In this document: positions 2 through 32,186 of the stretch, piece after piece
How the letters are laid out: each line of letters begins with the position of its first letter
Numbering within the stretch: the stretch's first letter is position 1
IMG/VR virus record: IMGVR_UViG_3300028393_000226
Coordinates: 1-32,627 of that record
Strand: one strand, 5' to 3'
Length of the DNA stretch: 32,627 nucleotides
Source of the DNA: a virus
Lineage: Duplodnaviria; Caudoviricetes
Notes under the pieces: generated by a model
The model's input: the letters and a program-made list of their open reading frames with translations, nothing else
The model's database searches: none
What the model was told of the DNA's origin: nothing
Made by a program: the position numbers and the translations under genes

Positions 2-1048
2 CACAATCAGGATCAGGCGTACATGAACGATATGAACCGTATCGCCATGCACGAAATGATTCTGTTCCAGCAGGGCAAGCGGTCAGATTTGCCATCCCAA
101 TCTGAGTTGACTGAGAAGACGAACCAGTTGTACTCGTTGAAAACTTTGACAAACTTGTTGTCTCCAACGTCTGTCCAGTACACGAACGATGTAAACTATT
201 ACCAGCAGTTGTATCGCAAGTATCAGACGATGTACCCAGATGGTAATGATGCGGATCAGAAGTTCCTTGAGGACAATCCTGATTACTTTGTCGTCATGGA
301 ACCGTTGTCGAAGAACCAGTTTGGTGCTACTGCTACTCAGCAGTCAGTGTCTAACATTAAGAAGTACAGTGATCTTGCTGCTATTGCTTCCGCATCTGGT
401 GATCCGAAAATGGTCGGTTGGTTGGCTAACTATGGGCAAGGGCCTTACGACCAAAAGAACTTCTCGTCGGCTTCTTACAACTGGCAGTTGACCCACTCTC
501 CTGTACCGGGTGGGACGAACTTCCGTACACAGAAGAACCCACAAGAGGTCATGCAGGACGCTCTGGTTAACCGTGGTTGGATTCGTTTCAATCAGGCCAT
601 GGACGAGATCACAGCCAACTATCAGGCCCGTGGTTTAAACACTGCTGATCCAGCAATCAACAAGGCCATGCTTAGTGGTGCTGTGGCGTTCTTGAACCAA
701 GACAAGTCCAATGCTGCTTGGTATGAAGAGTTTAAATCATCTGATCGTGCTCGCTTTGAGAAGCGTGCAGATTTCTTCCAGCAGGCTCTTGCTGACCCGG
801 CGTTCGGTGGTGATCACAAGGACGATCAGACGATTCAAGCGATTGGCTCGTTCTTGGATCTTCGTAGCCAAATGTCTAATGCTCTTAACGATGTCAAAGC
901 GAATGGTGGTTCTAATCGCCTTACGGCGAAGTCGAACTATCAGATGGCTCAAGACTACTTGCAGCAGATTGTGGCGTTGAAGAACCAGAACCTTGGGTTC
1001 TCTGAATGGTATGACCGATACTTTACTAACGATCCGGTGGTGCTCTGA
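2..1048 (+). CDS. Large internal virion (ejection) protein, C-terminal part, 5' truncated by the window edge
   Basis: The frame is open from position 2. The product is helical, Q/A/D/N-rich, and coupled by TGATG to further virion genes upstream of scaffold and capsid. Function is inferred from position. Confidence 0.6.
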   Translation, partial: HNQDQAYMNDMNRIAMHEMILFQQGKRSDLPSQSELTEKTNQLYSLKTLTNLLSPTSVQYTNDVNYYQQLYRKYQTMYPDGNDADQKFLEDNPDYFVVMEPLSKNQFGATATQQSVSNIKKYSDLAAIASASGDPKMVGWLANYGQGPYDQKNFSSASYNWQLTHSPVPGGTNFRTQKNPQEVMQDALVNRGWIRFNQAMDEITANYQARGLNTADPAINKAMLSGAVAFLNQDKSNAAWYEEFKSSDRARFEKRADFFQQALADPAFGGDHKDDQTIQAIGSFLDLRSQMSNALNDVKANGGSNRLTAKSNYQMAQDYLQQIVALKNQNLGFSEWYDRYFTNDPVVL

Positions 1049-1842
1049 TGGCAGGTGGCGATGGACAGGCTAGTTCGGCAACTGAGGCCGCTGACCAACA
1101 GCAGCAAAGCCAACAACAGCAGTCATCTTTTGCGTACAACGTTTACAACGGCTCAAGGGCTGACAACTTTTCTCCACGTAGCCGCCGAGAAGAACAACAT
1201 CACTGGAACGTCCGAGATGTATTCCAGACTGGTGCGGAGCACATGGCTGCGTTTTGGGACAACTGGAACGCGAACCCTGCATGGCGCACTAAGTTGATTT
1301 CTGGGTACATCGCTTTGGGTAACACCCCTTCAGATGCCCTTGATGGTTTTAAAATGTTTAAATTTTGGGACACGTTGGGACAGGCCTCTGGAGTGGCAAG
1401 TGAGTCTGGCAAGAAGATGACTCCTATGCAGATCCTTGCGTTTATGGCTGGAAAGAGTGGGGCATTGGCTGCTCAGCAAGCCAAGGCCAGTGCACAGTCT
1501 ATGGTCAAGGATGTAACCAATACGACGTACACGATTGAAGATCCTGCAACGGCTCTAGCGTTGACGCAAAGCGTTCTTACGGCTGCTCTGGGCCGTCAGG
1601 CTTCACCTGATGAGGTCAAGCGTTACACGTCGGCTATTCAGTCTTACGACAGGGCCAATCCGATCATTGACCATATCCATCAAGACGCTAACGGCAATCA
1701 GACAAAGACTACGACTGGTGGAGTATCCTCTACGGGCGAGCAGGCTCTGATCGCTAACACTGCAAACAACAGTGCTGAGGGTCAGGCGTACCAGACCAAT
1801 GGTGTGTTCGATCAGGCCATGAAGATTCTGTCGGGTCTGTAA
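1048..1842 (+). CDS. Putative internal virion protein
   Basis: 264 aa, overlaps both neighbours (TGATG, TAATG), Ala/Gln/Thr-rich. Confidence 0.55.
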   Translation: MAGGDGQASSATEAADQQQQSQQQQSSFAYNVYNGSRADNFSPRSRREEQHHWNVRDVFQTGAEHMAAFWDNWNANPAWRTKLISGYIALGNTPSDALDGFKMFKFWDTLGQASGVASESGKKMTPMQILAFMAGKSGALAAQQAKASAQSMVKDVTNTTYTIEDPATALALTQSVLTAALGRQASPDEVKRYTSAIQSYDRANPIIDHIHQDANGNQTKTTTGGVSSTGEQALIANTANNSAEGQAYQTNGVFDQAMKILSGL

Positions 1843-3329
1843 TGACAGCACCTAACGCTGGTGGCGGTTCCGTCCTACAGATCACCGATGATGCTCAAAA
1901 AGCACTAGACGCTGCTCGCGCCTACATTGGTATGTCGTATCAACCGAACCGGTGTTTACAGTTCATCCGTACCTGTTGGGGTGCAGCCGGGATGGGTGGT
2001 AATCCGAACACAAACATTTCGTTTGTTCCACCGGATCAAATGCACTCAGACATGATGCCCCCGTTGGGCGCTCCGGTCTGGTTCACGGGTGGTAAGAACG
2101 GTCACATTGCAATGGTCTCTAAGTATGTAGATGGCCAGCCCTACGTGATCACCACCGACTTTCCAACCATGGGCAAGATCGGCGAAGTCCCCTTGAAAGA
2201 TGTCATCCACTGGTTGGGCAACATGAAGTACCGGGGTTGGTCGTCAAGCATTAACAACAAAACAATTCTCAGGGGTGCCACGCACCCCGTTGGTGATGGA
2301 GGTGTCCCAGTGGCAGGTAACTCAACGAACTCCACGTCAACGACAAGTGGTGGTGTTAGTGGCGGTGGGACTCTAGGCTTTCAGGCTGCTGACGCTTCAG
2401 ATGTTTGGGATCACTTGCAGGCCGAGTTCGGTCTCACGTCGAACCTGTTGGGCCTTGATAAGACTGATCCGAAGAAGGGGTTCACTCTCACGGAAGCCTT
2501 CACCGCTATCCGCACTGGCGGAGACTATTACGTCAACGGTAAGAAGGTTAAGGGTACTGGTGCTGCGATCACAGACCCGATGCGTGCTGCGAACATTCTT
2601 GCTCAGACTGACTGGTTCAAAACTCACGGTGCTGATGTAACGAAGAATCTTGCAGCGGAAGCGAACGGTCTTGGAGCGTTTAAAGAGAACGTCGCTAAGA
2701 AGCAGGCTGAACTGAAGAATGCTTTTGCTTCTGCTGGTATCAAACTTGGCGACAAGGATCTGGCCAAACTTTCCCGTGATGCTTTCGTCTATGGCCTCAG
2801 TAATGAGCAGATCATGGACAGGGCTACTGCCACTAAGGGTGTTGGGTTCACGGGTGGTGGAACCATCGGTAACTCGCTCCAATACCTTGACGGTTTGGCT
2901 GAGCAGAACGGTGTGAAAATCTCTGGCGGTGATCGTCTCGCTTGGGAACGCGACCTTGCTAACGGAAACAAGACGACGCAGGATTACGAGAAGATGTTGC
3001 GTGACCATGCAGCCACTCAGTATTCAGTGTTCGCTGATCAGATCCGTGCCGGTCAGAACCTTCGTGATTTGACTAAGCCTTACCGTGACATGACAGCACA
3101 GTTGTTAGAGGTCAACCCTGATTCTGTGACATGGAACGATCCACTGTTTAAAGATGGGAAAGCATTCCAAACAGTTGATCCGAAAACTGGGCAGATGACG
3201 ACGAAGCCGTTGTGGCAGTACCGTCAAGAAATCATGAAGGATGCTCGCTGGCAGCGCACTGATAATGCGAAGCAGCAGTACACCGATTTCGGGTCTAGTG
3301 TTTTGAAGAAGTTCGGAGTGATGTCGTAA
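1842..3329 (+). CDS. Internal virion protein with N-terminal CHAP/NlpC-P60-like peptidoglycan hydrolase domain
   Basis: CLQFIRTCWG...PPLGAPVWFTGGKNGHIAM gives a Cys/His dyad pattern. A Ser/Thr/Gly linker and a long helical region follow. Confidence 0.65.
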   Translation: MTAPNAGGGSVLQITDDAQKALDAARAYIGMSYQPNRCLQFIRTCWGAAGMGGNPNTNISFVPPDQMHSDMMPPLGAPVWFTGGKNGHIAMVSKYVDGQPYVITTDFPTMGKIGEVPLKDVIHWLGNMKYRGWSSSINNKTILRGATHPVGDGGVPVAGNSTNSTSTTSGGVSGGGTLGFQAADASDVWDHLQAEFGLTSNLLGLDKTDPKKGFTLTEAFTAIRTGGDYYVNGKKVKGTGAAITDPMRAANILAQTDWFKTHGADVTKNLAAEANGLGAFKENVAKKQAELKNAFASAGIKLGDKDLAKLSRDAFVYGLSNEQIMDRATATKGVGFTGGGTIGNSLQYLDGLAEQNGVKISGGDRLAWERDLANGNKTTQDYEKMLRDHAATQYSVFADQIRAGQNLRDLTKPYRDMTAQLLEVNPDSVTWNDPLFKDGKAFQTVDPKTGQMTTKPLWQYRQEIMKDARWQRTDNAKQQYTDFGSSVLKKFGVMS

Positions 3330-4171: not shown

Positions 4172-4183
4172 GCCCCTTAGACA

Positions 4184-4266: not shown

Positions 4267-4299
4267 ATGTAAACACAACACAAAGGGAGATAGCCAATC

Positions 4300-6020: not shown

Positions 6021-6035
6021 TCCATTTGGATCACA

Positions 6036-7208: not shown

Positions 7209-10016
7209 GTGCCAGCGTTTACACCCACTAGGGGTGTTCCCGTTGGGTTGAAACCACCGTTCGGTCGGCCTAATCTTCCACAACCAGCCTCTCCAGTTAA
7301 ACTCGTCCAGTCTAATTCGGTTGGCTTTGACCAAGGTCCAAGTCCGACTTATTGGACTTCAATCTCGCTGCCGAAGCCGCCAACGGCGGGAAATCTGCTC
7401 GTCATTGTTGCAAGTTTGAACTACGGTTTTCCTACTCCAAGTGGTTGGACTACGGTCACAGCAAGCCAGTCAACGGTGCTTGCGAAAGTATCAGTGGGCG
7501 CTGCCGATCAGACGTTCACAGCCGTAACGGGGTATTTTACTGCTGCGCTTTCTTACGTCGAACTATCTGGCGTATCGCTTGCTGGGTTTTCTGTAGTTAA
7601 CTCAGGTGCCATTAACACGTTGACTGCTCCTGCGGGTAGTGTTGTTATTTCCGTTGTTGATTATCATGATGCGGCCGCTAGCGGGGGTCAGCCTCCGTAC
7701 CCCAGCGCGTATACGCCTGATGGGATGCTGTCACTTTATAAAGGCTGTTACTACGTTAATGGCATAGATAACGACGATTCGTACATAGCATCTGCCGGTA
7801 TCGCATTCCCCGACACCGCAACAACGTACTGGACTGGCGTTGGTGCCACGCGCACCTTGGCATCCACTGGCTCATGGACAGATGCTGGCCAGACTAATGG
7901 CCTGATCGCTTACTTCCCAGCGGGAACGAACAGCACAACGGTTAACGGTACTGCAACTGCGACAGGTGCCGGTGCTGCAACTAACAGCAACATCATCGTT
8001 AACCCGTCAGCACGATCAGTCGGTGCAGGATCAACTTCTCCTACGGGACAAGTTAACTTCGCTACCAACCCAAGCCTTGAGGCTGGTACTACGGGTTGGA
8101 CGTGGCAGCAACAAACCAATGGTGCTCCCGCAACTGTTAGCCAAGGTTCCACTCTTCCTGTTGATGGACAGTTCACTGCTGTAGCCAGCATCACTGGTAC
8201 TCAAACTATTGCCACTAACCATGGCATGAGTATCAACGGTGCTACTCCTGCTGGAACTATCGTTCCCGGTCTCCCGTACACGTTTAGCGTGTATGTGAAA
8301 CCTTCTCGAACGAACGTGTTCTTGATGGGTGTGGACTGGGTTGGTGCGGGTGCTTCCGCTACGTCCACGGCTACGACGGCTAATGCTGGCGTATGGACTC
8401 GTCTTACTGCATCGGGTACAGCACCTGCTGGTTCGACAAACATTAACGTCAACATTTGGACTAATACGGCTGGTGGTTCTGTCCTCTGGCAGAACCTTGA
8501 CACGATCACTTACGATGCGTTCCTCGTAGAACAATCAGCATCTCTGAATGCTTACCCGATCGGGACGAAACCTGTCCAAGGAACCCTTGGTAGTACGGCT
8601 ATTGGTGCTGGGTCTATCCCCACTGCGACTGGTTCTTCTGTCTCGGGTGGATCAACTGGTACAGCAACTGGTTTAGGCCAGATAACGGCTAACGCTACAA
8701 CGGGTTCCACGGGTTCTAGCGTGGGTGTAGGACTTGTTACTGGTAACACGGTAACGGTAGCGACAGCGACCTCCACAGGGGCTGGAACAGCCACCTCTGG
8801 GTCTGCATCTAACAGTGCTGCAACACTCATTGGTGCTGGTCTTGTTACTGCACTATCTACAGTGTCAGCGGCTGCACCCGGTACGGGTGCTGGTGTAGCA
8901 ACTGGTTTAAACAGTACGAGTGCTACAACTTCTGCGGTTGGTGCTGGTGTTGCTACCAGTGCAAGCCCACGAACGGTTGCTCCTGCTACATCGACTGGTG
9001 CTGGTGTTGCCAGCAACACGAACACTGTTACTTCTGCCACCGCTCTGGTGGTGGGTGCTGGGTCTGTCACTGCTAATACGAGCGGTTCTGCTTCTGGCAC
9101 ATCCACTGTCACTGGTGCAGGTACTGCTACTTCTAACGCGGTAACCGTCGCTGGTTCCACTGCATCAGGTAGTGGTGTTGTAACGGCTGCCAGTTCGATT
9201 GTTGTTCTTGGATCTGCCACTGTTGTTGGTGCTGGCTCGGCTAGTAACTCTTCAGTCGCGTTGCGGTCTACTGCTACCAGCACTGGTGCTGGTGTGGCTA
9301 CTGGACAGAACCTTAGTTCTGTTTATGGGGCTGCGATTGTTTCGGGTCTTGGTGTAGCCACTGCGACTGGGACAACAACACAGGCTGTAGCAACTAAGTA
9401 CATGTTCAGTGGGAGTCGGCAGTTCTTACAGGATCGTCTCTTCTTTAAGACTGGACCTGTCCACCAGTATTCGATCATTAAAAAGGGAACTGTTTACACG
9501 GAGAGTTCTTACCCAACGTCAGAAGATTATTCAACTGCTGACATGGTTTACCGGGGTGGGTTCACTTACGAAGTTTCCTACGATGAAGCACTCCGTTTAT
9601 ATGCTTCTGGTTACAGCGTGTCTGGCCTGTCTGCATTGCCAACGATAACGGGTACAGCATCTTCCAGTGGGTCTGGATCTATTTTGACCGGATCAACACT
9701 TGTTGCTTCTGGTTCTCTTACCGGGTCTGCATCTGTTTTGACCGGATCAACACTTGCTGCTTCTGGTTCTCTTACCGGATCTGGTGTCGCGGTTGCTATC
9801 GCTACCACGTCAACTCCGTCTGGCTCTTATACGTGGGGCACACCAGCAACGTGGGGCACTCCAACTACATGGGGTGGCTCATCTTCTGGTTCATCGTTTA
9901 CATGGAGCAGCCCTGCTACATGGGGCACTCCATCAACTTGGAGCAGTTCTTCGTCCAGTTCACCTTCTACATGGGCATCACCGTCTACGTGGGCATCACC
10001 AACAACATGGGGTTAA
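7209..10016 (+). CDS. Large fibre protein with CBM-like domain, Gly-Ala-Gly repeats and C-terminal Trp repeats
   Basis: NPSLEAGTTGW...YTFSVYVK...WTRLTASGTAPAG is a carbohydrate-binding-like module. GAGxAT repeats recur about every 17-20 aa, and the protein ends in TWxxPx repeats. Confidence 0.7.
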   Translation: MPAFTPTRGVPVGLKPPFGRPNLPQPASPVKLVQSNSVGFDQGPSPTYWTSISLPKPPTAGNLLVIVASLNYGFPTPSGWTTVTASQSTVLAKVSVGAADQTFTAVTGYFTAALSYVELSGVSLAGFSVVNSGAINTLTAPAGSVVISVVDYHDAAASGGQPPYPSAYTPDGMLSLYKGCYYVNGIDNDDSYIASAGIAFPDTATTYWTGVGATRTLASTGSWTDAGQTNGLIAYFPAGTNSTTVNGTATATGAGAATNSNIIVNPSARSVGAGSTSPTGQVNFATNPSLEAGTTGWTWQQQTNGAPATVSQGSTLPVDGQFTAVASITGTQTIATNHGMSINGATPAGTIVPGLPYTFSVYVKPSRTNVFLMGVDWVGAGASATSTATTANAGVWTRLTASGTAPAGSTNINVNIWTNTAGGSVLWQNLDTITYDAFLVEQSASLNAYPIGTKPVQGTLGSTAIGAGSIPTATGSSVSGGSTGTATGLGQITANATTGSTGSSVGVGLVTGNTVTVATATSTGAGTATSGSASNSAATLIGAGLVTALSTVSAAAPGTGAGVATGLNSTSATTSAVGAGVATSASPRTVAPATSTGAGVASNTNTVTSATALVVGAGSVTANTSGSASGTSTVTGAGTATSNAVTVAGSTASGSGVVTAASSIVVLGSATVVGAGSASNSSVALRSTATSTGAGVATGQNLSSVYGAAIVSGLGVATATGTTTQAVATKYMFSGSRQFLQDRLFFKTGPVHQYSIIKKGTVYTESSYPTSEDYSTADMVYRGGFTYEVSYDEALRLYASGYSVSGLSALPTITGTASSSGSGSILTGSTLVASGSLTGSASVLTGSTLAASGSLTGSGVAVAIATTSTPSGSYTWGTPATWGTPTTWGGSSSGSSFTWSSPATWGTPSTWSSSSSSSPSTWASPSTWASPTTWG
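9669..9776 (+). repeat. 54-bp tandem duplication in the fibre gene
   Basis: Units 9669-9722 and 9723-9776 encode GSGSILTGSTLVASGSLT and GSASVLTGSTLAASGSLT, with 3 nucleotide differences. Confidence 0.9.
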
Positions 10017-10019
10017 ACA

Positions 10020-11492
10020 ATGGCTTACCAACGTGTCACGTCAACCGACTCTTTCACCACTGGGGCAACTGCCGCGACGACAGTCATCAACGCTATCGAG
10101 GTTGGCGTAGAAGCCCTAGAGGCTGCTATTTCCCCCTCCACGACCTTTCCCAGCGCGACCACGACGGGTTACGGTTCAACATCTCTGACAGCCACAACTG
10201 CTGGTGCTCTGAGCATTGTTAACAATGCAACGTTTACAGCCTTGGACATTACCGGTCAGGTAACGATCCCCGGTGGTGTTACGGGTGTCACGTTCACGAA
10301 CTGTCGCATCACGGGTAGCGTCAATTATGGTTTGTATGTTTCGTCTACTGCCTCGGTGACACTCCAAAACTGTGAGATTACTGGACCAACAAACAACTAC
10401 AACGGTGCGGCTCTAGCCGGTGCTGGCAGTGGTGCCGTGGTAGTTAAGAACTGCAAGATTTGGGGTTACGAGGATGGCATCAAGCCATCTTCCAACTGGA
10501 CAATCCAAGACAATTACATTTACGACCTTGCCAATAACAACGTGCAAGTCCAGTCGATCTCTAACACGTCAGGCTCAACGTGGCGTTACGTGGTTGCTCC
10601 TACCGCTCTAGGTACAGCGATGCCATTCGCTGCCACGAACTCGGTTGTTGTCTCTGGTTGTACGGCAAGTGGTAACAATGGAACGTTTACAGTCACAGCA
10701 GTTGGTTCCAACTATTTTGAGGTAACAAACGCTTCTGGTGTAGCACAGGCTACGGCTGCCGGTTCTGCTGCTAACTCACACTGTGACGGCATCCAGATCC
10801 AGACTGGTGTCAGCAATGTCATCATTAACCACAATACGATCATCGCCCCAACCACCCTGCTGGGTGTCACGTCAGCGGTCTTCGTCTCCCCTGACATTGG
10901 ACCTGCCGGTCCCGGCCCTGTGACCATCCTGAACAACTACCTGTCAGGTGGTCCGTACACGCTGATCATCGTGGATGGCAACAACGGCCAGTACCACACC
11001 TCGGGCCTATCGGTCATCAACAATACGTTTGTCAACAACTCCATTAACGGTCCAACTCGTATCACTGAGCCAAGCCCATACTGGAACGCTTGGTACGGCA
11101 ACATTTACACTGACAAGACTCCTGTCAGCCCCGGTGTCCTGACCGCATTGCAGCAAACCTCGATCAGCGGTTGGTTGTCGCCAGCATTCAACGCATCGTT
11201 TACACCTAACTGGCGTGACGGTAGGACAACGAACGTTGGTGTGCTCACCGCTGCAATCACGATTAACGCACCAACGAGCAACCCCGGTTACACCTCAACG
11301 ATCCCTTCGGGTACGCAGATGACGTTCCTGCTGACGCAGGATGCAACGGGTGGTCGTGCTATTACGTGGAACGCAATTTTCTTACGCTCAACTTCTCTAG
11401 CCGCATCGGGCACAGCAAGTCAGCGTGCCTCCATCTCATTCGCTTGGGACGGCACCAACTGGGTTGAGACCGCTGTCTCACCATGGCACTAA
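10020..11492 (+). CDS. Right-handed beta-helix (pectate lyase-like) spike/depolymerase
   Basis: Repeats VTFTNCRI, VTLQNCEI, WTIQDNYIYD, HCDGIQI, IINHNTI, ILNNYL. The C-terminus has a LTQDATGGRAITW fibre domain. Confidence 0.75.
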   Translation: MAYQRVTSTDSFTTGATAATTVINAIEVGVEALEAAISPSTTFPSATTTGYGSTSLTATTAGALSIVNNATFTALDITGQVTIPGGVTGVTFTNCRITGSVNYGLYVSSTASVTLQNCEITGPTNNYNGAALAGAGSGAVVVKNCKIWGYEDGIKPSSNWTIQDNYIYDLANNNVQVQSISNTSGSTWRYVVAPTALGTAMPFAATNSVVVSGCTASGNNGTFTVTAVGSNYFEVTNASGVAQATAAGSAANSHCDGIQIQTGVSNVIINHNTIIAPTTLLGVTSAVFVSPDIGPAGPGPVTILNNYLSGGPYTLIIVDGNNGQYHTSGLSVINNTFVNNSINGPTRITEPSPYWNAWYGNIYTDKTPVSPGVLTALQQTSISGWLSPAFNASFTPNWRDGRTTNVGVLTAAITINAPTSNPGYTSTIPSGTQMTFLLTQDATGGRAITWNAIFLRSTSLAASGTASQRASISFAWDGTNWVETAVSPWH

Positions 11493-11506
11493 GGGGTAAT
11501 GTAAAC

Positions 11507-11848
11507 ATGGCGCTCGGTGATAATTGTAGAAGTGGATGCCTCACACGCGACCATGCAACGTGGGGTGAGTGTGCTCGTCACGCTTCTCTACGTGTTGGTT
11601 GGGCAGCATCAAGTAATGGTGGCTACTCGCTACGTGGGGAGAAGTTGCATGAGGCTGAACTGAACGCTTACGCACAGGCCCGACGTGACGGTTTGCAGCC
11701 TGCTGCTACCACGCAGAAAGCAGTGAACGAAGCGTACCGGGCTTCTGAGTTGATCGGTAAGCCTTACAACGCTGACACGATGCCACCTACTGCGGCTATC
11801 CCTAACCAGAGGACAGCGACCGTGGCCACTCAGGCAGGGATGCTATGA
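11507..11848 (+). CDS. Phage hypothetical protein with N-terminal CxxxC...H...C motif
   Basis: Start reassigned to ATG 11507 (GGGG-TAATGTAAAC-ATG). Motif CRSGCLTRDHATWGEC. ATGA overlap with the next gene. Confidence 0.7.
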   Translation: MALGDNCRSGCLTRDHATWGECARHASLRVGWAASSNGGYSLRGEKLHEAELNAYAQARRDGLQPAATTQKAVNEAYRASELIGKPYNADTMPPTAAIPNQRTATVATQAGML

Positions 11849-12720
11849 GTCTGAGCCTCACTGATCTGACTAATGCGATCACTCTTGAACTGTCTGGTTA
11901 CACCCAGACTCAGGAGCAGGCTTCGTACACTACGGCGGCTATCACTTCTTCAGCCACGTCGATCCCTGTAGCCGATGCGTCTAACTTCTCTCACGGTGTT
12001 GTAGAGATCGAAGACGAACTGGTGTACGTGACAACGATTGACAGGTCCAGCAACATTCTGACTGTTGCACCGTTTGGTCGTGGCTATGGTGGGACTACGG
12101 CTGTGGCTCACGCGATCAACGTGAAGGCTGTGAACTCTCCGCTGTTTCCCCGAGCGGCGATTAAACGAGCGATCAACGAAACAGTCAACGCTCTCTACCC
12201 TGACTTGTGGCAGGTGGCTAGTGCCACACAGGTCCTTATCGCAGGACAAACCTCGTACTCGTTAACCCCAACCCCACAGGTTGGGGACATCATGGATGTC
12301 TCGTACCGGAACCCTTACTCGCTTGAGTATGCACCGATCCGACGTTGGAAGTACGACAAGTATCAAGATCAAATCGTGATCTGGGATTCGTTACCGACCG
12401 GGTACACGGCATACATTTCTTACTCGTCTCCCCCATCAACGTTCGCTACTGATGCGTCCACAATCCTGTCCACAGGATTACCAGATTCTTGTTCTGATGT
12501 GATCCGCCTCGGTTCAATCATTCGTCTCTTGCCTTACGTGGAGATCCCGAACTCGGCAATCATCGCCGCTGATGCTTCTTTCGCTGCTAACGCTCGCATA
12601 TCTCAAACATCTGCTGCTGCCTTATCGAGGCAGTTGTATCAACAGTTCCGTATCCGCGTTCAAGAAGAGGCTGCTCGTTTAAACCAGCAGTATCCCGTCC
12701 GTGTCCACTACACCCGCTGA
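11845..12720 (+). CDS. Head-tail adaptor / tail tubular protein A-like
   Basis: Helical termini around a beta core (IKRAINETVNALYPDLW, GQTSYSL), an inserted RGYGGTTAVAH domain, and position before the tail fibre. Confidence 0.6.
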   Translation: MSLSLTDLTNAITLELSGYTQTQEQASYTTAAITSSATSIPVADASNFSHGVVEIEDELVYVTTIDRSSNILTVAPFGRGYGGTTAVAHAINVKAVNSPLFPRAAIKRAINETVNALYPDLWQVASATQVLIAGQTSYSLTPTPQVGDIMDVSYRNPYSLEYAPIRRWKYDKYQDQIVIWDSLPTGYTAYISYSSPPSTFATDASTILSTGLPDSCSDVIRLGSIIRLLPYVEIPNSAIIAADASFAANARISQTSAAALSRQLYQQFRIRVQEEAARLNQQYPVRVHYTR

Positions 12721-12727
12721 GGTTTAA

Positions 12728-14746: not shown

Positions 14747-14749
14747 GCC

Positions 14750-15025
14750 ATGTATACGACTCCAACAATAATAAATGCACTCAATGATTACGGGGGTGTA
14801 CTCATTGTTCTCATTACCATCATCACGTCTTTCGCCGCTGCTGGACGCTACCTCGTTATGCGTCCACTTATGAGCGAGATTGAAAGACGCACATCACAGA
14901 TTCAACCAAACGCTAACGGCGGTCAATCACTAAAAGACCTACACGGTCGTGTGGACCGTATCGAACGCCAGTTAGACCTCGTAATCGAACACTTAATAAA
15001 GGATGAGGATGATCCCCAAGATTAA
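14750..15025 (+). CDS. Single-TM membrane protein with coiled-coil (holin-associated)
   Basis: Hydrophobic GVLIVLITIITSFAAAG followed by PNANGGQSLKDLHGRVDRIERQLD. Confidence 0.65.
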   Translation: MYTTPTIINALNDYGGVLIVLITIITSFAAAGRYLVMRPLMSEIERRTSQIQPNANGGQSLKDLHGRVDRIERQLDLVIEHLIKDEDDPQD

Positions 15026-15857: not shown

Positions 15858-15868
15858 GAGATGTAAAC

Positions 15869-16102
15869 ATGTCACAATTTTGGGAATCCATTCCCGCACC
15901 GATCCGAACAATCATTAACGTCGTTGTGGGTGCAGCGTTCGCCGCTGCTGTCTCCTATGTGATTGGGAACATCTCAGGTGGAACGATCGACCTGAACGCT
16001 CTCGGTCAGGCTGTCCTCATTGCTGCGGGTACTGCTCTCGTCCGTGCTATTAATCCGGCTGACACTGCTTACGGTGTCGGTTCGAATCCTGAGGGCATCT
16101 GA
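15869..16102 (+). CDS. Holin
   Basis: 77 aa, two hydrophobic segments, RAINPAD..YG tail, TGATG-coupled to the endolysin. Confidence 0.75.
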   Translation: MSQFWESIPAPIRTIINVVVGAAFAAAVSYVIGNISGGTIDLNALGQAVLIAAGTALVRAINPADTAYGVGSNPEGI

Positions 16103-16881: not shown

Positions 16882-16894
16882 GAAGGACTAGCCC

Positions 16895-19372: not shown

Positions 19373-20392
19373 TCATCTCGCAATCTCCACAACAGTGGCA
19401 TCTTCGTGACTCAACGATGGGAACATGACGTTCCCAGATATCATTTCATTCCTCTGCGTACGCTCAAGGCTAAGCCCAATGTAGCGTTCCGTTACCCGTG
19501 TGTCCTTGTGTCCTAACATTGAACTGACACGCATTAACGCTCCGTCGTATCCCTGATCACGGAGAGTATCGAAGAGTGCCCGACTCCCACTTCGTCTCAA
19601 TGTATGTTCGCCCTCGCCCAGAGGGTCGTAGCCCAACACAACCAGCGCCCTCTGAACGGATCGGTATGGGTGAGACACCTTCCGCGTCGGACGCAATGGT
19701 GCTAACTCACCTGACACTTCAATGCGATGGGTGACAGGGTTGTATCGTGTTGGGTTTGGAGCCTTTGATGGGATTAGATACCATTCGTGGCGTAAGTGTG
19801 GTGTGTTCTGGTTTGTCCTGTACCACCGGAAGTACCGTTCAAACTCAGCGGCCAACTCAAGTGATACCGGTAGCACATCTTCTTCTTGTGTCTTGTGCCT
19901 ATAGATATTCAATTCGTACCGCTCAAGGTTGAGAGCACTGATCTGCAAGGTAGCGATCTCTCCCCCTCGCAAGAACGTGTAGATCCCAAGAGCACACAGC
20001 ATCCGATCCCGTGGGTGTTTACACGCATCGAGTAGTGCTGGGAACTCAGCCAATGGCAGGCGCATCTTGTCTCGCCGTGGCACGGTCAGGTTGTTCCACC
20101 CAGCCGTGGGATCGAAGTCACGGGCCATGTAGTTCTCACGCCTACACCACTGGAAGAACGAGCGCAGGTTGCTGAGGTACAGGTTCCGTGTGCTGGCGAC
20201 CCATGTGGCTCGCCGGAACAGTCGGTCTATGTGTGATCCGGTGATGGCTGAGATGCGTACATCTCCCCACTCTTGTTGAGCAAGGTTCAACACTTGCATG
20301 TGGTTCTTGATTGTGGACTTTGATAACCCTCGGGCTGTCAGGTGTCCACGGTATTCGGCTTTCGCTTCGATCAGGTTCATTGCTCTGGGCAT
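19373..20392 (-). CDS. int: Tyrosine integrase
   Basis: Catalytic R (FLRGGE), K (RHKT), HxxR (HTLRR), H (LGH), Y (TERY). SD GAGGGAG before ATG 20392, alternative start 20422. Confidence 0.92.
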   Translation of the reverse strand: MPRAMNLIEAKAEYRGHLTARGLSKSTIKNHMQVLNLAQQEWGDVRISAITGSHIDRLFRRATWVASTRNLYLSNLRSFFQWCRRENYMARDFDPTAGWNNLTVPRRDKMRLPLAEFPALLDACKHPRDRMLCALGIYTFLRGGEIATLQISALNLERYELNIYRHKTQEEDVLPVSLELAAEFERYFRWYRTNQNTPHLRHEWYLIPSKAPNPTRYNPVTHRIEVSGELAPLRPTRKVSHPYRSVQRALVVLGYDPLGEGEHTLRRSGSRALFDTLRDQGYDGALMRVSSMLGHKDTRVTERYIGLSLERTQRNEMISGNVMFPSLSHEDATVVEIAR

Positions 20393-20427
20393 GTTCGCTC
20401 CCTCATAGGTAGATTGGAACATGACAC

Positions 20428-20479: not shown

Positions 20480-20503
20480 GGGTTCAAGTCCCCCCCCGGA
20501 CAC
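20480..20503 (+). mobile_element. attP common core matching the 3' end of a tRNA (Leu-type)
   Basis: GGGTTCAAGTCCCCC-CCCGGAC-A-C gives a T-loop, T-stem 3' strand, acceptor 3' strand (pairs with 5' GTCCGGG) and discriminator. It lies next to the integrase. Confidence 0.8.
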
Positions 20504-20629: not shown

Positions 20630-21085
20630 ATGGCTCCGCCAACGCTTGTACCAGACAAGACTACCCTCCAAAGGTGGCAGCGTGAAGGACTCACCCACGC
20701 TGAGATGGTCGCACGACATGAACAAGAAACCGGGATCAGGGTTTCACGGGCAAGTATCAGTGGAGCAATGGTCCGGTATGGACTGGCCGAGAACAAACCC
20801 CGCTACCGGAACTCTTTGCCATGGCGTGTAAGAGATGAACACGGCACGCATTATGCCGCCCGTATGTTGCGACTTTATGGTCGCAAAGAACAGACCCCTG
20901 ACAAGTTGAACATAGATGAATCGCAACGGCTGCGGTCATGGTTGGACATGTTGGAACGCGAACAAGCCGTCGTTGGATATGACCCTGATTCAGATGAAGG
21001 GTTCTACTACATCGACCAAGCATTGAAAGACAATGATGATCCAGCGCCTATTAGGCGCAGAAGGATTTACACAAATCCTCGCTAA
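20630..21085 (+). CDS. Immunity repressor, mycobacteriophage L5 gp71-like
   Basis: N-terminal HTH, then LPWRVRDEH...RMLR...RLRSWLDMLEREQAVVGYDP...GFYY. This parallels the recalled gp71 WPW...H...RLR...RLLSWWKMLRDDDLVLEFDP...GFRY. Confidence 0.75.
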   Translation: MAPPTLVPDKTTLQRWQREGLTHAEMVARHEQETGIRVSRASISGAMVRYGLAENKPRYRNSLPWRVRDEHGTHYAARMLRLYGRKEQTPDKLNIDESQRLRSWLDMLEREQAVVGYDPDSDEGFYYIDQALKDNDDPAPIRRRRIYTNPR

Positions 21086-25208: not shown

Positions 25209-25387
25209 GTAGCGAAGTAACAGTTGTGCAGCGGGTGTCGATCCCTTTGAACGAGTTCACCACGTTGGAAGAAGTGCAATCGTTTGTGAGTGCAGCGTTG
25301 ACGATATTCGGTACAAACAATCCGAAGGTTGGCGCTGAGCAGCGTGGCTCTGAGGTCCAGTTGTATGCAACGGCTGACGTAGCATGA
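25205..25387 (+). CDS. Small hypothetical protein
   Basis: 60 aa with ATGA overlaps on both sides. Confidence 0.6.
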   Translation: MSSEVTVVQRVSIPLNEFTTLEEVQSFVSAALTIFGTNNPKVGAEQRGSEVQLYATADVA

Positions 25388-26145
25388 TCAAGATTTACAT
25401 CGCGGGGCCAATGCGTGGCCGACGTAACTTTAACCGTGAAGCATTTAAACAGGCAGAAGCGGAACTGGAGCGCACCCATCCAGATGCGATCGTTTACAAC
25501 CCATCACGGGTTGACTACTTACGCTTGGGTTACTGGTTGGAATCTGAGACCGGTGAACTTGAGGACGTACCCGAGTTCGATCTGCGTGAAGCCATGGCAA
25601 TGAACATGGATTGGATCTGCACGCACGCTACACATGTTTACATGATGCGCGAGTGGTGGGATTCAGAAGGAGCATCGGCTGAGTTTGAGTTGGCTAATGC
25701 TCTTGGCTTGACGGTCCTGTACGAAGAAGAAGATTTGGTTGCGTACATGGATACGTTCTTGTCTGAGCGAACTAACACGTTTGAATCGTACCTTCCTCAG
25801 TATGTGAAGGATGCCATCGAACCACAGTCAGAGGAGCCGTTTGAGAAGGCTGTTGCTCACACGTTTAAAGAAGCACAAGACATCTTGTTGAGGAAGCACC
25901 ATGATTACGGGCCGAAGAACATCAGTATGGCACCGGGTGGTCCTTTAAACGGTCTACGTGTACGCATGTGGGACAAGATCAGTCGGCTGTCTAACCTCAT
26001 GGACCGCAACACTGCGGCTAACTATGAGTCCCTTGAGGACACGCTCATTGACCTTGGGAACTATGCGCTGATTGGTGTGCTCGTACTAAGGCGTCAGTGG
26101 CCGATGGACTATTCGGAGTATGACCGAATCAACGGGGAAAAGTAA
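25384..26145 (+). CDS. DUF4406 (deoxyribosyltransferase-like) fused to Nmad1/DUF1599-like domain
   Basis: IYIAGPMRG...FN..AF...NPS...WWDSEGASAE. C-terminal KHHDYGPKNI...GLRVRMWDKISRLSNL...ESLEDTLIDLGNYALI. Confidence 0.75.
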   Translation: MIKIYIAGPMRGRRNFNREAFKQAEAELERTHPDAIVYNPSRVDYLRLGYWLESETGELEDVPEFDLREAMAMNMDWICTHATHVYMMREWWDSEGASAEFELANALGLTVLYEEEDLVAYMDTFLSERTNTFESYLPQYVKDAIEPQSEEPFEKAVAHTFKEAQDILLRKHHDYGPKNISMAPGGPLNGLRVRMWDKISRLSNLMDRNTAANYESLEDTLIDLGNYALIGVLVLRRQWPMDYSEYDRINGEK

Positions 26146-27651: not shown

Positions 27652-27653
27652 GA

Positions 27654-27688: not shown

Positions 27689-27692
27689 ATAC

Positions 27693-28869: not shown

Positions 28870-28889
28870 ATGGCTCCCCCCCAAGGGAT

Positions 28890-29315
28890 CTAGTTAGGAA
28901 TAGTCCAATCACCTGAGGTGATTTGTTCCGTACCCAACGGAACATGTGGGTAGATGAACGCAATCGCTGGGATAGGTTCGTCCATCGTCTCCGTGTAAAC
29001 GCGGATGATGCGTGCTTTGTAACCGGCGTTCTCTTCCATGCTCACTATGCTGTGCATACGAGCATCAGGTTTCACCCACACCAGATCACCCTTGACCTCC
29101 GAGTACATGGTGTCCACCATCCACGGGTATGAGGCGTGACCGGGCCTGCCGTATAAGCCGTAGCCATAGACAGAACCCTTAACGTGAGACTCCACTGACC
29201 AGTAGCCAGAGTTGCTCTGCCCCGGTCGCAACGTGCCGTACACAAAGAACGCCACCGGGGTAGGTGATGAGTTCAGTAGGTGGTTCAGGTCATCGCGTGT
29301 TAAAACGTCAGCCAT
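28890..29315 (-). CDS. Gamma-glutamylcyclotransferase (AIG2-like)
   Basis: FFVYGTLRPGQSN, YP, VKGDL, E...GY, ITSGDW. Confidence 0.85.
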   Translation of the reverse strand: MADVLTRDDLNHLLNSSPTPVAFFVYGTLRPGQSNSGYWSVESHVKGSVYGYGLYGRPGHASYPWMVDTMYSEVKGDLVWVKPDARMHSIVSMEENAGYKARIIRVYTETMDEPIPAIAFIYPHVPLGTEQITSGDWTIPN

Positions 29316-29593
29316 TCGTCTCTCCCTTCACTGTATGCGCTTAGGTCTGCGGTGCCAGTGGCCGCGTAAGCGATCAAGAACTCTAGGTCTGGCATGTTTA
29401 CATCGAGCAACACTTCGGACCACACCCATGCTCGCCATGCGAGCGCGGCCTTAATGTTCTTCGCGTCCTCTTCGTCGAACTGTCGCTTGCTTAGGTTGCG
29501 TAGTAGTCGTTCGGGAGTGACACCGTGGTAAGTGCCACCCCCGTGGAACGCTAGTTTCCATTCGACGTAATCTTCAGTCGTCACAATTTGCAC
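29300..29593 (-). CDS. Hypothetical protein
   Basis: 97 aa, SD GAGGA, overlaps neighbours in the operon. Confidence 0.6.
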   Translation of the reverse strand: MQIVTTEDYVEWKLAFHGGGTYHGVTPERLLRNLSKRQFDEEDAKNIKAALAWRAWVWSEVLLDVNMPDLEFLIAYAATGTADLSAYSEGRDEWLTF

Positions 29594-29849
29594 CGTCCTC
29601 TTCTTCGCACATTTCTAACCACCGTCGTGCCCTGTGTAGGTCCATCATTGCATCGGTGATGAGTTGTGTCAACTTGATATGGTGCCCTAGCAGAGTGCGT
29701 AGGTTGTCTGCACACTTGTCGGCACGCTGAACCCATTCTTCGGGGTCACCGGGTGACAGTTGCATAGCCCATCCTCCCCCGTTGTTCTCGCCAATGGCAC
29801 GCACTGACAGTTGTGCTTCACGCATGACATCGAAACCATTCTTCGGCAT
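29574..29849 (-). CDS. Hypothetical protein
   Basis: AGGAG-GTTTAAAC-ATG start. Confidence 0.7.
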   Translation of the reverse strand: MPKNGFDVMREAQLSVRAIGENNGGGWAMQLSPGDPEEWVQRADKCADNLRTLLGHHIKLTQLITDAMMDLHRARRWLEMCEEEDGANCDD

Positions 29850-29851
29850 GT

Positions 29852-30148
29852 TTAAACCTCCTGTGTGATGGACTGTAGGTAGTAGTAGGCAACCATGTAA
29901 CGAGCGCGTTCAAACGTTGGCAGAAAGTCACCCGTCACCTTGACCGGCTCACCTGAACGGTGATCCCAGCCCACCCACACATGGTGACCACGGACACGCC
30001 TGACCGGGTATGTTTCAACACGTTCAATGCTGAACGTCGCGTTCAGCCCACGGTCCAGCCAGATGTATGAGCCAGACTTGACTCGCGTCCAACTCTGGGC
30101 ATGGCGCATGGCGTCAGCGGTGGCTTCTTCTCGCGTTAGTGTGGCCAT
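29852..30148 (-). CDS. Hypothetical protein
   Basis: AAGGA-GTTTAAAC-ATG start. Confidence 0.7.
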   Translation of the reverse strand: MATLTREEATADAMRHAQSWTRVKSGSYIWLDRGLNATFSIERVETYPVRRVRGHHVWVGWDHRSGEPVKVTGDFLPTFERARYMVAYYYLQSITQEV

Positions 30149-30150
30149 GT

Positions 30151-30414
30151 TTAAACTCCTTCGCCTAACTCAATAGACTGTCGGATGAACGTAGCCTCAC
30201 GTCCCCCACCGGGGGACCTGTGGTTCGGTGTGTAAACTTCGATCAAGCCACCTGCCGCGCCATTACGCCACTGGTACGACTCGGTACGGACAGAGATATA
30301 TATCTGCTCTCCCCGACTCATCGCCAGCGCGAGGTCAGCGATCAAGTAGGCAACCTCCCCCGGCTCGATAGAAATACGTGTCTCAGAGTCTGTTGGTTGA
30401 GTGAATAGTGTCAT
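30151..30414 (-). CDS. Hypothetical protein
   Basis: Start reassigned to 30414 (GGGAG-TTTTAAG-ATG), 1 nt after the GATase stop. Confidence 0.65.
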   Translation of the reverse strand: MTLFTQPTDSETRISIEPGEVAYLIADLALAMSRGEQIYISVRTESYQWRNGAAGGLIEVYTPNHRSPGGGREATFIRQSIELGEGV

Positions 30415-30415
30415 C

Positions 30416-31432
30416 TTAAAACTCCCATGCTCGGGTTCGGTTTGAGTTCTTGAGTGACATGTGCAGCATGTCGTCGTTGTCCCACGTCCAGTCGGGCCAC
30501 TGATCGGGATCATTCCCATACGGACCCATGTCCATGCTCACATCATGTAGCGATGCAGGTGCAGGTTCGACCTCATCCCACACTGACGTGTAAACGTTAG
30601 GGTCATACGCCTTGACCGGAGTCTTAACCTTGACGGCCTTAGCCTTGACCACAGACTTGCCCACGGCAGGCTTGCGCTTGCCCGTGCCTTGATCGGGAGC
30701 ATAACCAAAGTGGACACGCTTAGGTAGTGTAAACGTAGTCGTCTCCACTAGTCGGGTCCGTGTGAACTTGAGATATGTTCCCTCGCCCACGGTGTAGAGG
30801 GTGAACGGGATCATGCCAACGGCCTTCATAGCCTGTAGCAAGGCCATCTCAGTGCTGGCGAACACGGTGCTGCCCTTCTCAGTCATCGCCACGATAAGTG
30901 GTGATGCACTGCCCCGCGCTAGGTGCAGGACGGGGTGTTTGGCTTGCGTGTCGAACCATGCGACTGCGGCCCTACCGTCCAGCCGTTCCAGTTCCTTAGC
31001 CGGGTGAGTGCCCTTCATGTGGGCGTGACGGATGAGCGCGATGATCGACTCGGAATCAACCTGCCCGTGTCGTTTAAACGGTACGGTGGCAAAGATTTCG
31101 GAGTCGTTCGATATGTGCCCGTTATGCACGCCGATGAACCGGCCCGACTTGATCGGGTGATTATTCAGTTGGTTATCCGCGCTACCTTGCGTGGCATAGC
31201 GCGTGTGCAGGATAGCCATGACAGCACCCACGCCAGCGTTGGGATGGGCACTGCGGAATTGCTTTGCCCGTCCTGTCACCGTGTGATGTTCGATCTTGCC
31301 AGCCGTGGTCACCCACGCTGCACCGGTAGCGTCACCCCCGCGAGGGTCGATGCCGTTATGTAGTTCGCGCATGAGCCTAGCCGTATCGACTCGCTCGTTC
31401 CTTGCAATGATGTATCCAGCGATTCCACACAT
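30416..31432 (-). CDS. Class II (Ntn) glutamine amidotransferase
   Basis: MCGIAG, RGGDATG, HTRYATQG, NNHP, HNGHISN, VDSE. Confidence 0.92.
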   Translation of the reverse strand: MCGIAGYIIARNERVDTARLMRELHNGIDPRGGDATGAAWVTTAGKIEHHTVTGRAKQFRSAHPNAGVGAVMAILHTRYATQGSADNQLNNHPIKSGRFIGVHNGHISNDSEIFATVPFKRHGQVDSESIIALIRHAHMKGTHPAKELERLDGRAAVAWFDTQAKHPVLHLARGSASPLIVAMTEKGSTVFASTEMALLQAMKAVGMIPFTLYTVGEGTYLKFTRTRLVETTTFTLPKRVHFGYAPDQGTGKRKPAVGKSVVKAKAVKVKTPVKAYDPNVYTSVWDEVEPAPASLHDVSMDMGPYGNDPDQWPDWTWDNDDMLHMSLKNSNRTRAWEF

Positions 31433-31469
31433 GTGGCCTCACCGTCCTTTCGTTTGTTGTGTTGGGTCC

Positions 31470-31498
31470 AGTCTAGTGGCATGTTGTGATGATGTCAA
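31470..31498 (-). promoter_or_regulatory. Strong SigA-type early promoter
   Basis: Minus strand TTGACA-N17-TAGACT, followed by a CA-rich leader and SD GAAAGGA. Confidence 0.8.
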
Positions 31499-31499
31499 A

Positions 31500-32186
31500 T
31501 CAGATCAAGACGAGTTGATCGACGCCGACAATTTCGTCCTCAGTCCAGAGAACTAACTGACACGGGATGTTTAAACGTGAGATATGCGTCCAGAACTCGG
31601 CGGGTAGGACATCGGCAGCCGTAGCACAGGCCGTCCCATCCCCCACCGCGTGGCTATCGCCACAGTCACACTCCGGGTAGTCCCGTTGGTTTACACAGTC
31701 CTCGCATAGTTGCGCGTCCCGGTCCTCGTAATACCCATCGTTCCAGCATGATCGGCATTCACCCTCAGAGGGTTGATAGTTCGGGTCTAGGTAGTCGCCA
31801 CACTCGCAATACCACCCGCGAACATGTTCGGGCAGGTCTTCCACGTTGTCGGCAACAACAAGACCACTACGGAAGAACTCATTGTTTAAACATCCGACCG
31901 AACATGCTCCCAGCCCTCGCCGGTAGTTGTGGAACACCTGCCCCGGCAAGCCCTGCCCACGCCATAGGCACGCGATATCGTTGGCGTCAAAGTCTGCATT
32001 GATCATGCACGCGAGGACATCGGTCCACGTTATGCCGGTCACCCCGGTACGGGCTTGATCTATCACGGCCAGTAGTGCCACGTCGAAACAGTTACAACAC
32101 TCCCGACAGTTCCCACACGGGTCTTGATCGTGATACTGACCCTCGCATGGTGCGACATCGCACCCGCATGTGTTTACACACTCCAT
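31500..32186 (-). CDS. Cys-rich acidic hypothetical protein
   Basis: SD GAAAGGAG before ATG 32186. Multiple CxxC/CxC clusters. Confidence 0.7.
   Translation of the reverse strand: MECVNTCGCDVAPCEGQYHDQDPCGNCRECCNCFDVALLAVIDQARTGVTGITWTDVLACMINADFDANDIACLWRGQGLPGQVFHNYRRGLGACSVGCLNNEFFRSGLVVADNVEDLPEHVRGWYCECGDYLDPNYQPSEGECRSCWNDGYYEDRDAQLCEDCVNQRDYPECDCGDSHAVGDGTACATAADVLPAEFWTHISRLNIPCQLVLWTEDEIVGVDQLVLI

What the first reader, a model, noticed from the sequence alone, without database searches (positions are those of the whole stretch)
633..32179. Genome-wide iterated octamer GT[GT]TA[AC]AC (GTTTAAAC family) selected at the DNA level
Seen: GTTTAAAC starts at 633, 6085, 6345, 8905, 12677, 16614, 21272, 22800, 24580, 26213, 28716, 29850, 30149, 31072, 31569 and 31884 (16 copies; under 1 expected at a roughly estimated 54% GC). 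GTTTACAC/GTGTAAAC starts at 7217, 9492, 11198, 16805, 17589, 18736, 20017, 21843, 23917, 24142, 26347, 26670, 27007, 27567, 28148, 28993, 30230, 30588, 30727, 31689 and 32172 (21 copies). About a dozen ATGTAAAC/GTTTACAT also occur. Copies sit inside genes on both strands and in different frames (RLN, GLN, FK, VYT, RLH, CKH), and force TTA/TTT/AAA codons that these genes otherwise disfavour. Inference: a dispersed DNA signal with core T[GT]TAAAC. It could be a stoperator-like network for the gp71-like repressor, sites for another DNA-binding protein, or a HIP1-like iterated palindrome maintained by a modification/repair process. I do not recognise this motif as described for such phages.
Basis: partly seen in the sequence, partly recalled or inferred. 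Interest (0 to 1): 0.9.

Follow-up and report, generated by a model that had tools for sequence, protein, structure and literature searches.

The report
Phage word tied to SprT-zinc-ribbon protein
This phage carries 69 copies of a seven-letter DNA word, far above chance. Across unrelated phages and plasmids the word tracks one small gene for a protease-like protein with a zinc-ribbon tail, so the copies are likely that protein's binding sites in an undescribed genome-wide control or protection system.

Summary
The window holds 69 distinct T[GT]TAAAC sites; 60 lie in genes, against 8-10 expected from codon shuffles. The unit is the asymmetric heptamer, not a GT[GT]TA[AC]AC palindrome family (GTGTACAC occurs once). 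It is not the gp71-like repressor's site, and none of 401 sampled actinobacterial genomes shows it. A complete copy of this phage encodes, 0.7 kb beyond the window, a first early gene for a SprT-like protein (protease motif lost) with a C-terminal zinc ribbon. That gene is in 7 of 7 motif-rich and 0 of 14 motif-free near-complete relatives. Searching with the ribbon alone found 78 further loci, 63 enriched for GT[T/G/C]TAAAC. Cultured carriers (Arthrobacter AZ, Microbacterium EH, Streptomyces, a cyanophage, plasmids) are enriched; carriers with an altered ribbon have no sites. The word sits upstream of the gene itself in 58 of 86 cases, and intragenic copies are conserved at synonymous positions. 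Binding is inferred, not shown. The most likely role is an autoregulated, non-polar operator/roadblock network; a DNA-tethered anti-defence role is the main rival. I found no description in print; three earlier notes of this scan agree.

The parts
190..32179 (.). Array of 69 distinct T[GT]TAAAC sites (16 of them the palindrome GTTTAAAC), both strands, 60 inside genes, densest in the early/replication arm
11500..11509 (+). Site TGTAAAC directly abutting an ATG start, behind a G-rich ribosome-binding-like run
   Evidence: 4 of 41 starts abut a site; about 0.05 expected from density alone
15862..15871 (+). Site TGTAAAC between AGGAG and the ATG of a small membrane-protein-like gene
29847..29857 (-). 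GTTTAAAC between CAGGAG and the ATG of an early gene
30146..30156 (-). GTTTAAAC between GAAGGA and the ATG of an early gene
32427..32627 (-). Cut 3' end of the amidoligase gene. The gene just upstream of it, about 730 bp beyond the window (G001 33528-34082; L086 12529-13083), is the candidate reader: 184 aa, SprT-like domain without HExxH plus C-terminal QTTRxxK-CxC...R-CP zinc ribbon
20630..21085 (+). gp71-like repressor (phrog_3929); considered and rejected as the reader of the motif
19373..20422 (-). Tyrosine integrase; context only (the phage appears temperate and has a separate repressor)

Best explanation
The T[GT]TAAAC copies are likely binding sites for this phage's own SprT-like/zinc-ribbon protein, encoded by the first early gene just beyond the window, which would repress its own and other early promoters and would sit on dozens of further sites inside genes as a non-polar roadblock or coat. 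Shown: enrichment; co-occurrence of gene and word across unrelated phages and plasmids; loss or change of the word when the ribbon's QxxR residues differ; position upstream of the gene; synonymous conservation of intragenic sites in a related clade. Inferred: direct binding by the beta-hairpin of the ribbon (about 0.85); autorepression (about 0.7); that the intragenic sites serve transcriptional silencing or timing rather than protection (about 0.55). In this phage the protease motif is gone, so occupancy rather than proteolysis would be the selected activity.
For: Gene in 7 of 7 motif-rich and 0 of 14 motif-free near-complete relatives, in three separate terminase lineages. Prospective search with the ribbon alone: 63 of 78 loci enriched at p<1e-3, reversed control words 0 of 78; loci from other scans 23 of 27 with the gene and 3 of 159 without. 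Cultured carriers: Caron 17, Liebe 17, Crosby 37 GTGTAAAC against 0.03-0.19 expected; Pan1, Adumb2043, VroomVroom and plasmid MGMAQ_p have 18-37 strand hits against control 0-2. Homologues with a divergent ribbon: CN1 1 site; Psa21-HRN, Dismas, Armstrong, phiAsp2 0. An RNTN-type ribbon goes with GTCTTAA instead. Site within 130 bp upstream of the gene in 58 of 86 (17.6 expected) and in 9 of 10 named QxxR carriers against 0 of 4 divergent ones. Site inside a -35/-10 spacer in 24 of 87 upstream regions against 102 of 1173 other sites. Same codon kept in 929 of 1006 motif positions against 549 expected. Several phages keep only the ~55-aa ribbon. Liebe (frameshift in this gene, clear plaques) versus Maureen (turbid), and no AZ repressor identified (bioRxiv 2025.05.26.655371, section 14).
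Against: No binding, expression or phenotype data for this phage. In G001 the nearest sites lie 248 and 284 bp upstream of the gene and not in a recognisable spacer. A strict promoter scan places 0 of 47 G001 octamers, 1 of 41 in G412 and none in five other genomes in a canonical spacer, so most sites are not promoter operators. 15 of 78 carrier loci miss p<1e-3; one 45-kb carrier has none and three are near their control. Nearly identical ribbons go with GTTTAAAC or GTCTAAAC, so there is no clean residue code. Loci are not independent: several clades are sampled many times. This phage has a separate gp71-like repressor, and carriers include integrase-less phages and plasmids, so immunity cannot be the general role. 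Liebe and Maureen differ at three other positions too.
Confidence: 0.5

Rival explanations
1. The same protein binds the same sites, but the point is protection of incoming DNA: the sites tag the element as self and tether a metalloprotease (or a passive coat) that removes or blocks host DNA-scanning defence proteins or protein-DNA adducts; the own-promoter site is only feedback.
For: First gene of the early operon next to the terminase. Density falls 18, 18, 11, 9, 7, 6, 8, 6, 2 per 5 kb from that end. 18-19 sites are spread over a 31-kb plasmid. Most sites are intragenic, non-polar and conserved. Site-dense phages also purge many restriction-like words; G001 has no AGCT, CCWGG, ATCGAT, CACGTG or GGTACC. 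Precedents: ArdC and ClpXP restriction alleviation (search listing and abstract starts only).
Against: Protease motif lost or whole domain deleted in the densest arrays (median about 1.8 sites/kb in 28 loci against 0.35 in 35 HExxH loci; confounded by clade). Continued restriction-site purging suggests that the system does not neutralise those enzymes. Liebe propagates with a frameshift in the gene.
Confidence: 0.3
2. The protein is specifically an immunity repressor of temperate phages (the missing AZ/EH repressor), with the protease domain as a built-in self-cleaving induction switch; sites in integrase-less phages and plasmids reflect carrier states or relics.
For: AZ and EH phages have integrases but no identified repressor. 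Clear-plaque Liebe carries the frameshift. The gene lies beside the integrase in KA2-1 and Mano. AZ sites directly follow a TAGACT -10-like hexamer.
Against: The densest arrays are in phages with no integrase cluster (G412 clade). This phage has a gp71-like repressor as well. Plasmids carry gene and sites. The protease motif is lost here.
Confidence: 0.1
3. A host protein reads the word and the SprT-ribbon protein is its partner, adaptor or protease, or merely travels with the same module.
For: Binding is untested; the true host is unknown; the word resembles recalled GntR/HutC (GT-N-TA-N-AC) and LacI half-site consensuses.
Against: The same word occurs in carriers infecting Actinomycetota, Proteobacteria and a cyanobacterium. 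Phages with a similar restriction-avoidance profile use three different words or none, tracking the gene allele. No sampled actinobacterial genome exceeds about 100 hits/Mb against about 1,400/Mb in G001.
Confidence: 0.06
4. HIP1-like or DUS-like accumulation by methylation-linked repair, gene conversion or uptake bias, with no bound phage protein.
For: Density (about 2 per kb), both strands, inside genes, turnover at long distance (278 of 661 kept at 50-70% protein identity).
Against: No methyltransferase seen. No host iteration. Placement upstream of one gene and dependence on its ribbon residues. One-mismatch neighbours only mildly depleted for GTTTACA (59 against 81) and not for GTTTAAA.
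Confidence: 0.04

Closest known systems
Operators and stoperators of Cluster A mycobacteriophages (L5 gp71, TipsytheTRex repressor; PMC9283540, passages read)
   Same: One phage protein, tens of dispersed sites, some in early promoters and some at gene starts.
   Different: There: 13-mers, asymmetric, oriented with transcription, in promoters or short intergenic gaps, read by an HTH plus Stoperator domain. Here: 7-8 bp, both orientations, 60 of 69 inside genes, candidate reader a SprT/zinc-ribbon protein, also in integrase-less phages and plasmids.
SprT-like protease of Arthrobacter cluster AZ and Microbacterium EH/EB phages (Lizalica gp46; bioRxiv 2025.05.26.655371, section 14 read; phrog_6361, PF10263)
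   Same: [quoted passage not shown]
   Different: It names no target word. The G001 protein lacks HExxH.
HIP1 of cyanobacteria; DUS/USS of Neisseria and Pasteurellaceae (features recalled; HIP1 search listing only)
   Same: Short word iterated at about 1-2 per kb, inside genes, both strands, shaping codon use.
   Different: Those are host-chromosome signatures tied to methylation or DNA uptake; this word is confined to mobile elements that carry one gene.
ArdC of plasmid R388 (PMC7213743, listing and abstract start only) and eukaryotic SPRTN
   Same: Metalloprotease-like domain joined to a DNA-binding domain on a mobile element, expressed early after entry.
   Different: ArdC is described as ssDNA-binding, and SPRTN as sequence-independent (recalled); neither has an iterated double-stranded site.
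IncP-1 KorA/KorB operator networks and phage P1 C1 operators (recalled, not looked up)
   Same: Autoregulated global regulator with dispersed operators on a mobile element.
   Different: HTH or ParB proteins, 12-17-bp sites, about 10-20 copies, no protease domain.

Membership tests
Cluster A stoperator system | 13-bp asymmetric site | tested here: not met
   Information is confined to 7-9 positions; flanks are flat; no longer repeated word found in the window.
Cluster A stoperator system | Orientation correlated with transcription | tested here: not met
   17 against 27 asymmetric sites by sense orientation, plus 16 palindromes; both orientations in Caron, Liebe and Crosby.
Cluster A stoperator system | Sites in promoters and short intergenic gaps | tested here: not met
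   60 of 69 inside genes; a minority abut starts (4 of 41 genes).
Cluster A stoperator system | Read by a gp71-type repressor | tested here: not met
   Repressor cluster present in 7 motif-free genomes and absent from 6 of 7 motif-rich ones.
Cluster A stoperator system | Bound protein halts transcription elongation | not testable with these tools
   Needs reporter or in vitro transcription assays.
HIP1 / DUS-type host repeats | Iterated throughout the host chromosome | tested here: inconclusive
   Not found in 401 sampled Actinomycetota genomes (highest about 100 hits/Mb), but the true host is unknown.
HIP1 / DUS-type host repeats | Cognate methyltransferase or uptake receptor | tested here: not met
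   None in window scans; the extra G001 ORFs were read by eye and only two were scanned.
SprT-like family (PF10263 / phrog_6361) | Sequence or fold homology | tested here: met
   phrog_6361 E 5e-10; Atlas features 0.96 and TM 0.74 to a PF10263 cluster; tblastn to annotated SprT-like proteases E to 7e-17. No direct Pfam hit for the G001 protein.
SprT-like family (PF10263 / phrog_6361) | HExxH zinc-protease motif | tested here: not met
   G001 has LAFACT where G460 and G431-433 have HELAH or HEVAH.
Autoregulated site-specific repressor | Cognate site in its own promoter | tested here: inconclusive
   Met across the family (58 of 86 upstream; 24 of 87 in a spacer); in G001 the sites lie 248-284 bp upstream with no clear spacer.
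Autoregulated site-specific repressor | Direct specific binding and repression | not testable with these tools
   No protein-DNA assay or model available.
Chi / KOPS-type polar motifs | Strong strand polarity | tested here: not met
   59 forward against 42 reverse in G001; many lineages use the palindrome.

The most novel reading that the evidence does not exclude
A widespread class of phage and plasmid proteins couples a sequence-specific zinc ribbon to a SPRTN-like protease and seeds its own genome with GT(T/G/C)TAAAC landing sites, so that the protease or a protein coat acts only on self-tagged DNA (clearing host defence or silencing proteins, or switching lysogeny). It would be a sequence-addressed self-marking system without DNA modification, and may supply the missing AZ/EH repressor.
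Probability: 0.35. Interest if true: 0.95.

Novelty: categorically new. Interest (0 to 1): 0.85.

Why it matters
It assigns a testable DNA target to a large uncharacterised family (1,692 clusters at 50% identity match the ribbon) that is now annotated only as 'SprT-like protease'. It shows selection on synonymous sites across phage genomes from several host phyla. It makes an open question directly testable in cultured phages: which protein controls lysogeny in AZ and EH phages, where no repressor has been identified. I rate it categorically new because the protein-site pair fails the tested defining features of stoperators, Chi and methylation-linked repeats. If the sites prove to be plain roadblock operators, it drops to a new variant of the stoperator kind.

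Tried and rejected
gp71-like repressor, WhiB, sigma-like protein, amidoligase and amidotransferase as reader: none tracks the word (amidoligase and amidotransferase are in motif-free G407 and absent from motif-rich G460). Host search through the attP-like 24-mer: two genome hits, neither enriched. Mild enrichment in a few actinobacterial genomes (G152, G362 and others) is sparse, about 10-20 hits/Mb, and looks unrelated. Megablast of 20 kb against cultured phages: no match. Capsid and integrase relatives were mostly motif-free in the stretches fetched, partly because these miss the early region. Read laying: no RNA holder listed; the 19.6-kb lay showed only 40 of about 3,170 differences; a 496-bp lay had none of 21 listed differences (23 counted) inside 4 sites, about 1.3 expected, so uninformative. 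No solved structure matches the ribbon by sequence (best E 0.5); Atlas features gave only generic small zinc-finger clusters; no informative domain fusion in 28 longer homologues. The gene picker ranked ORFs by cluster size instead of length (a bug); those maps served for orientation only, and one search failed on the same bug. The terminase tree is the quick search, not the careful one. CTCGAGC- and GCCGGCA-rich relatives and the 17-bp G407 repeat lack the gene and were set aside as separate phenomena. Literature searches that found no description of the word or its link to SprT; bioRxiv supplements were not seen and subscription journals are not covered.
Full report
Observation. The signal is the heptamer T[GT]TAAAC with a preference for G before and a purine after: 85 strand hits, 69 distinct sites. 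GTGTACAC occurs once, so the symmetric title consensus is wrong. 60 of the 69 sites lie in 43 gene models, against means of 7.7 and 9.6 (maxima 16 and 18) in 300 synonymous-codon shuffles of each kind. Orientation is not tied to transcription (17 against 27 asymmetric sites). Four of 41 gene starts abut a site.

Context. The window is 32.6 kb of a podovirus-like actinophage with capsid, integrase, gp71-like repressor, helicase, primase, sigma-like gene, WhiB and amidotransferase. Record G001 is a 44,389-bp copy at 99.9% identity whose ends overlap. It adds terminase, portal, amidoligase and a 184-aa first early gene, and has 85 sites falling from 18 to 2-8 per 5 kb away from the terminase-early junction. 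It entirely lacks AGCT, CCWGG, ATCGAT, CACGTG, CCCGGG, GGTACC, GGATCC and CTGCAG, which points to strong restriction pressure (inference). The host is unknown. In 401 Actinomycetota genomes drawn from a larger group, 15 of them unpublished, GTKTAAAC reached at most about 100 strand hits per Mb, against about 1,400 per Mb in G001.

Relatives. A terminase-alignment scan returned 80 loci. Many carry their own iterated word: GTTTAAAC, GTCTAAAC, GTGTAAAC or GTCTTAA, nearly exclusively per lineage. The two GTCTAAAC records I examined whole also avoid TTAA. I compared 44 records, 21 of them near-complete. The gp71-like repressor is in G001 and 7 motif-free genomes and absent from 6 of 7 motif-rich ones; WhiB and the sigma-like gene do not discriminate; amidoligase and amidotransferase are discordant in two genomes. 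One gene fits: the first early gene, SprT-like with a C-terminal zinc ribbon, or the ribbon alone. It is in 7 of 7 motif-rich and 0 of 14 motif-free near-complete genomes (one weak hit at E 0.48 not counted). These fall in three terminase lineages, with G460 nested among motif-free phages (quick tree). GTCTTAA phages carry a different allele with an RNTN ribbon and are scattered in the tree; G432 has GTCTTAA sites mostly in its early region and a few GTTTAAAC/GTCTAAAC sites mostly further out, as expected after an allele swap (inference).

Prospective test. A scan with the ribbon alignment confirmed 208 stretches and kept 80, with GC from 31 to 69%. Leaving out two copies of this phage, 63 of 78 are enriched for GT[T/G/C]TAAAC at p<1e-3 and 56 at p<1e-4; reversed control words score 0 of 78. 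Among loci of the other scans, 23 of 27 with the gene are enriched (the 4 misses are GTCTTAA-type) and 3 of 159 without it. These loci are not independent: several clades recur and a few loci repeat earlier ones. The family is in 164 cultured phage records and 74 plasmid records; I examined 18 named records. Caron, Liebe and Crosby have 17, 17 and 37 GTGTAAAC against 0.03-0.19 expected. Pan1, Adumb2043, VroomVroom, Persinger, Mano, MGMAQ_p and pUT1 have 8-37 strand hits against control 0-2; ep3, KA2-1 and Alexa are weaker (9 v 4, 16 v 5, 18 v 5). Five homologues whose ribbon lacks QxxR have 0-1 sites. Against the rule: 15 of 78 carrier loci miss the threshold, G474 has none in 45 kb, and G461, G470 and G473 are near control.

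Position and selection. A site lies within 130 bp upstream of the gene in 58 of 86 distinct cases (17.6 expected), and inside a TTGACA-like/TAnnnT spacer in 24 of 87 upstream regions against 102 of 1173 other sites. In G001 itself the nearest sites are 248 and 284 bp upstream, without a clear spacer, and a stricter scan finds almost no genome-wide sites in canonical spacers. In 854 orthologue pairs of the G412 clade, codons whose third base lies in a site are kept far more often than the same codons elsewhere (929 of 1006 against 549 at 70-85% identity; TTA 169 of 182 against 39%), and sites turn over at greater distance (278 of 661 kept; pairs not independent). For the window itself the one usable comparison was too small to tell.

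The protein. It matches phrog_6361 and SprT-like Atlas clusters but lacks HExxH. An AlphaFold2 model (mean pLDDT 82) ends in a beta-hairpin and short helix at residues 150-168, behind a low-confidence linker. The invariant Q, T, R, K and R residues lie at or on this hairpin; that they read DNA is inference. No solved structure matches by sequence; the fold search and the dimer prediction gave no result. The ribbon matches 1,692 clusters at 50% identity. Loci without the protease motif have denser arrays, though this is confounded by clade.

Mechanism. I put binding of the word by this protein at about 0.85. Sites in its own promoter point to autorepression, sites at ribosome-binding regions and early promoters to a regulon, and conserved intragenic sites to a non-polar roadblock or coat (0.5 for the whole chain). 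Protection of entering DNA by a tethered protease or coat is the main rival (0.3): the gene is first in the early operon, density falls from that end, and a plasmid is covered along its length. A pure immunity repressor (0.1), a host reader (0.06) and HIP1-like drive (0.04) fit worse.

What is in print. The AZ preprint (bioRxiv 2025.05.26.655371, section 14 and passages read, supplements not seen) predicts a DNA-binding domain in this protein, reports the Liebe/Maureen contrast and gives no target word. The Microbacterium survey (PMC7302621, passages read) has no occurrence of SprT, TAAAC or GTTTA in its main text and finds no EH repressor. Stoperator features come from PMC9283540 (passages). 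Six searches found no description of the word or the link. Three unchecked notes of this scan, found after my analysis, reach the same pairing in other genomes; they are not independent support.

Verdict. The signal is real and, in a related clade, under selection. It is tied to an undescribed protein-site pair spread over phages and plasmids of several phyla. Its function is inferred and can be tested directly in cultured phages. Interest 0.85.

Noticed in passing
window 20480-20503: 24 bp identical to the 3' end of a tRNA-Leu(GAG)-like gene, between integrase and repressor and flanked by GACCTGC repeats: a likely attP core. Exact matches in only two genome records, one titled Frankia alni MAG.
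   Followed up: partly
whole window and G001: Complete absence of AGCT, CCWGG and about ten 6-mers (ATCGAT, CACGTG, CCCGGG, GGTACC, GGATCC, CTGCAG, TCGCGA and others): heavy restriction-site purging in a phage that has an integrase.
   Followed up: partly
G407 (L240), 8900-17120: Seven copies of a 17-bp inverted repeat TGTTTCA-NNN-TGAAACA in the early region; it resembles the recalled parS consensus with one extra base. No SprT-ribbon gene.
   Followed up: no
G436, G435, G434, G437; G409, G442: Other iterated words in gene-less relatives: CTCGAGC (38 against 6.3 expected in G436) and GCCGGCA (61 against 9.5 in G409), spread genome-wide. Reader unknown.
   Followed up: no
Actinoplanes phage phiAsp2 (L381, L388-L390): Its divergent SprT homologue has no GTKTAAAC, but the genome carries about 13-17 copies of a TTGAC-ACTTCACA-GTCAA repeat, one directly upstream of that gene: possibly another specificity.
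   Followed up: no
G001 early region (L086 12500, 13135, 14975; window near 31450-31470): A repeated leader ACC[CA]AACACAACA...GAAGG precedes three early genes.
   Followed up: no
window 25384-26145: Fusion of DUF4406 (deoxyribosyltransferase-like) and nucleotide-modification-associated domain 1; holds 5 motif sites.
   Followed up: no
window 28890-32627 and L086 13164-14015: Gamma-glutamylcyclotransferase, glutamine amidotransferase and amidoligase cluster in the early region; the latter two are shared with the G412 clade and G407.
   Followed up: partly
L291 and L297, upstream of the SprT gene: GTTTGCAC occupies the promoter position that GTTTACAC holds in relatives: a possible specificity variant.
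   Followed up: no
protein P0175: The ribbon profile matches the C-terminus of a 292-aa terminase ATPase fragment; could be a fusion, an artefact or convergence.
   Followed up: no
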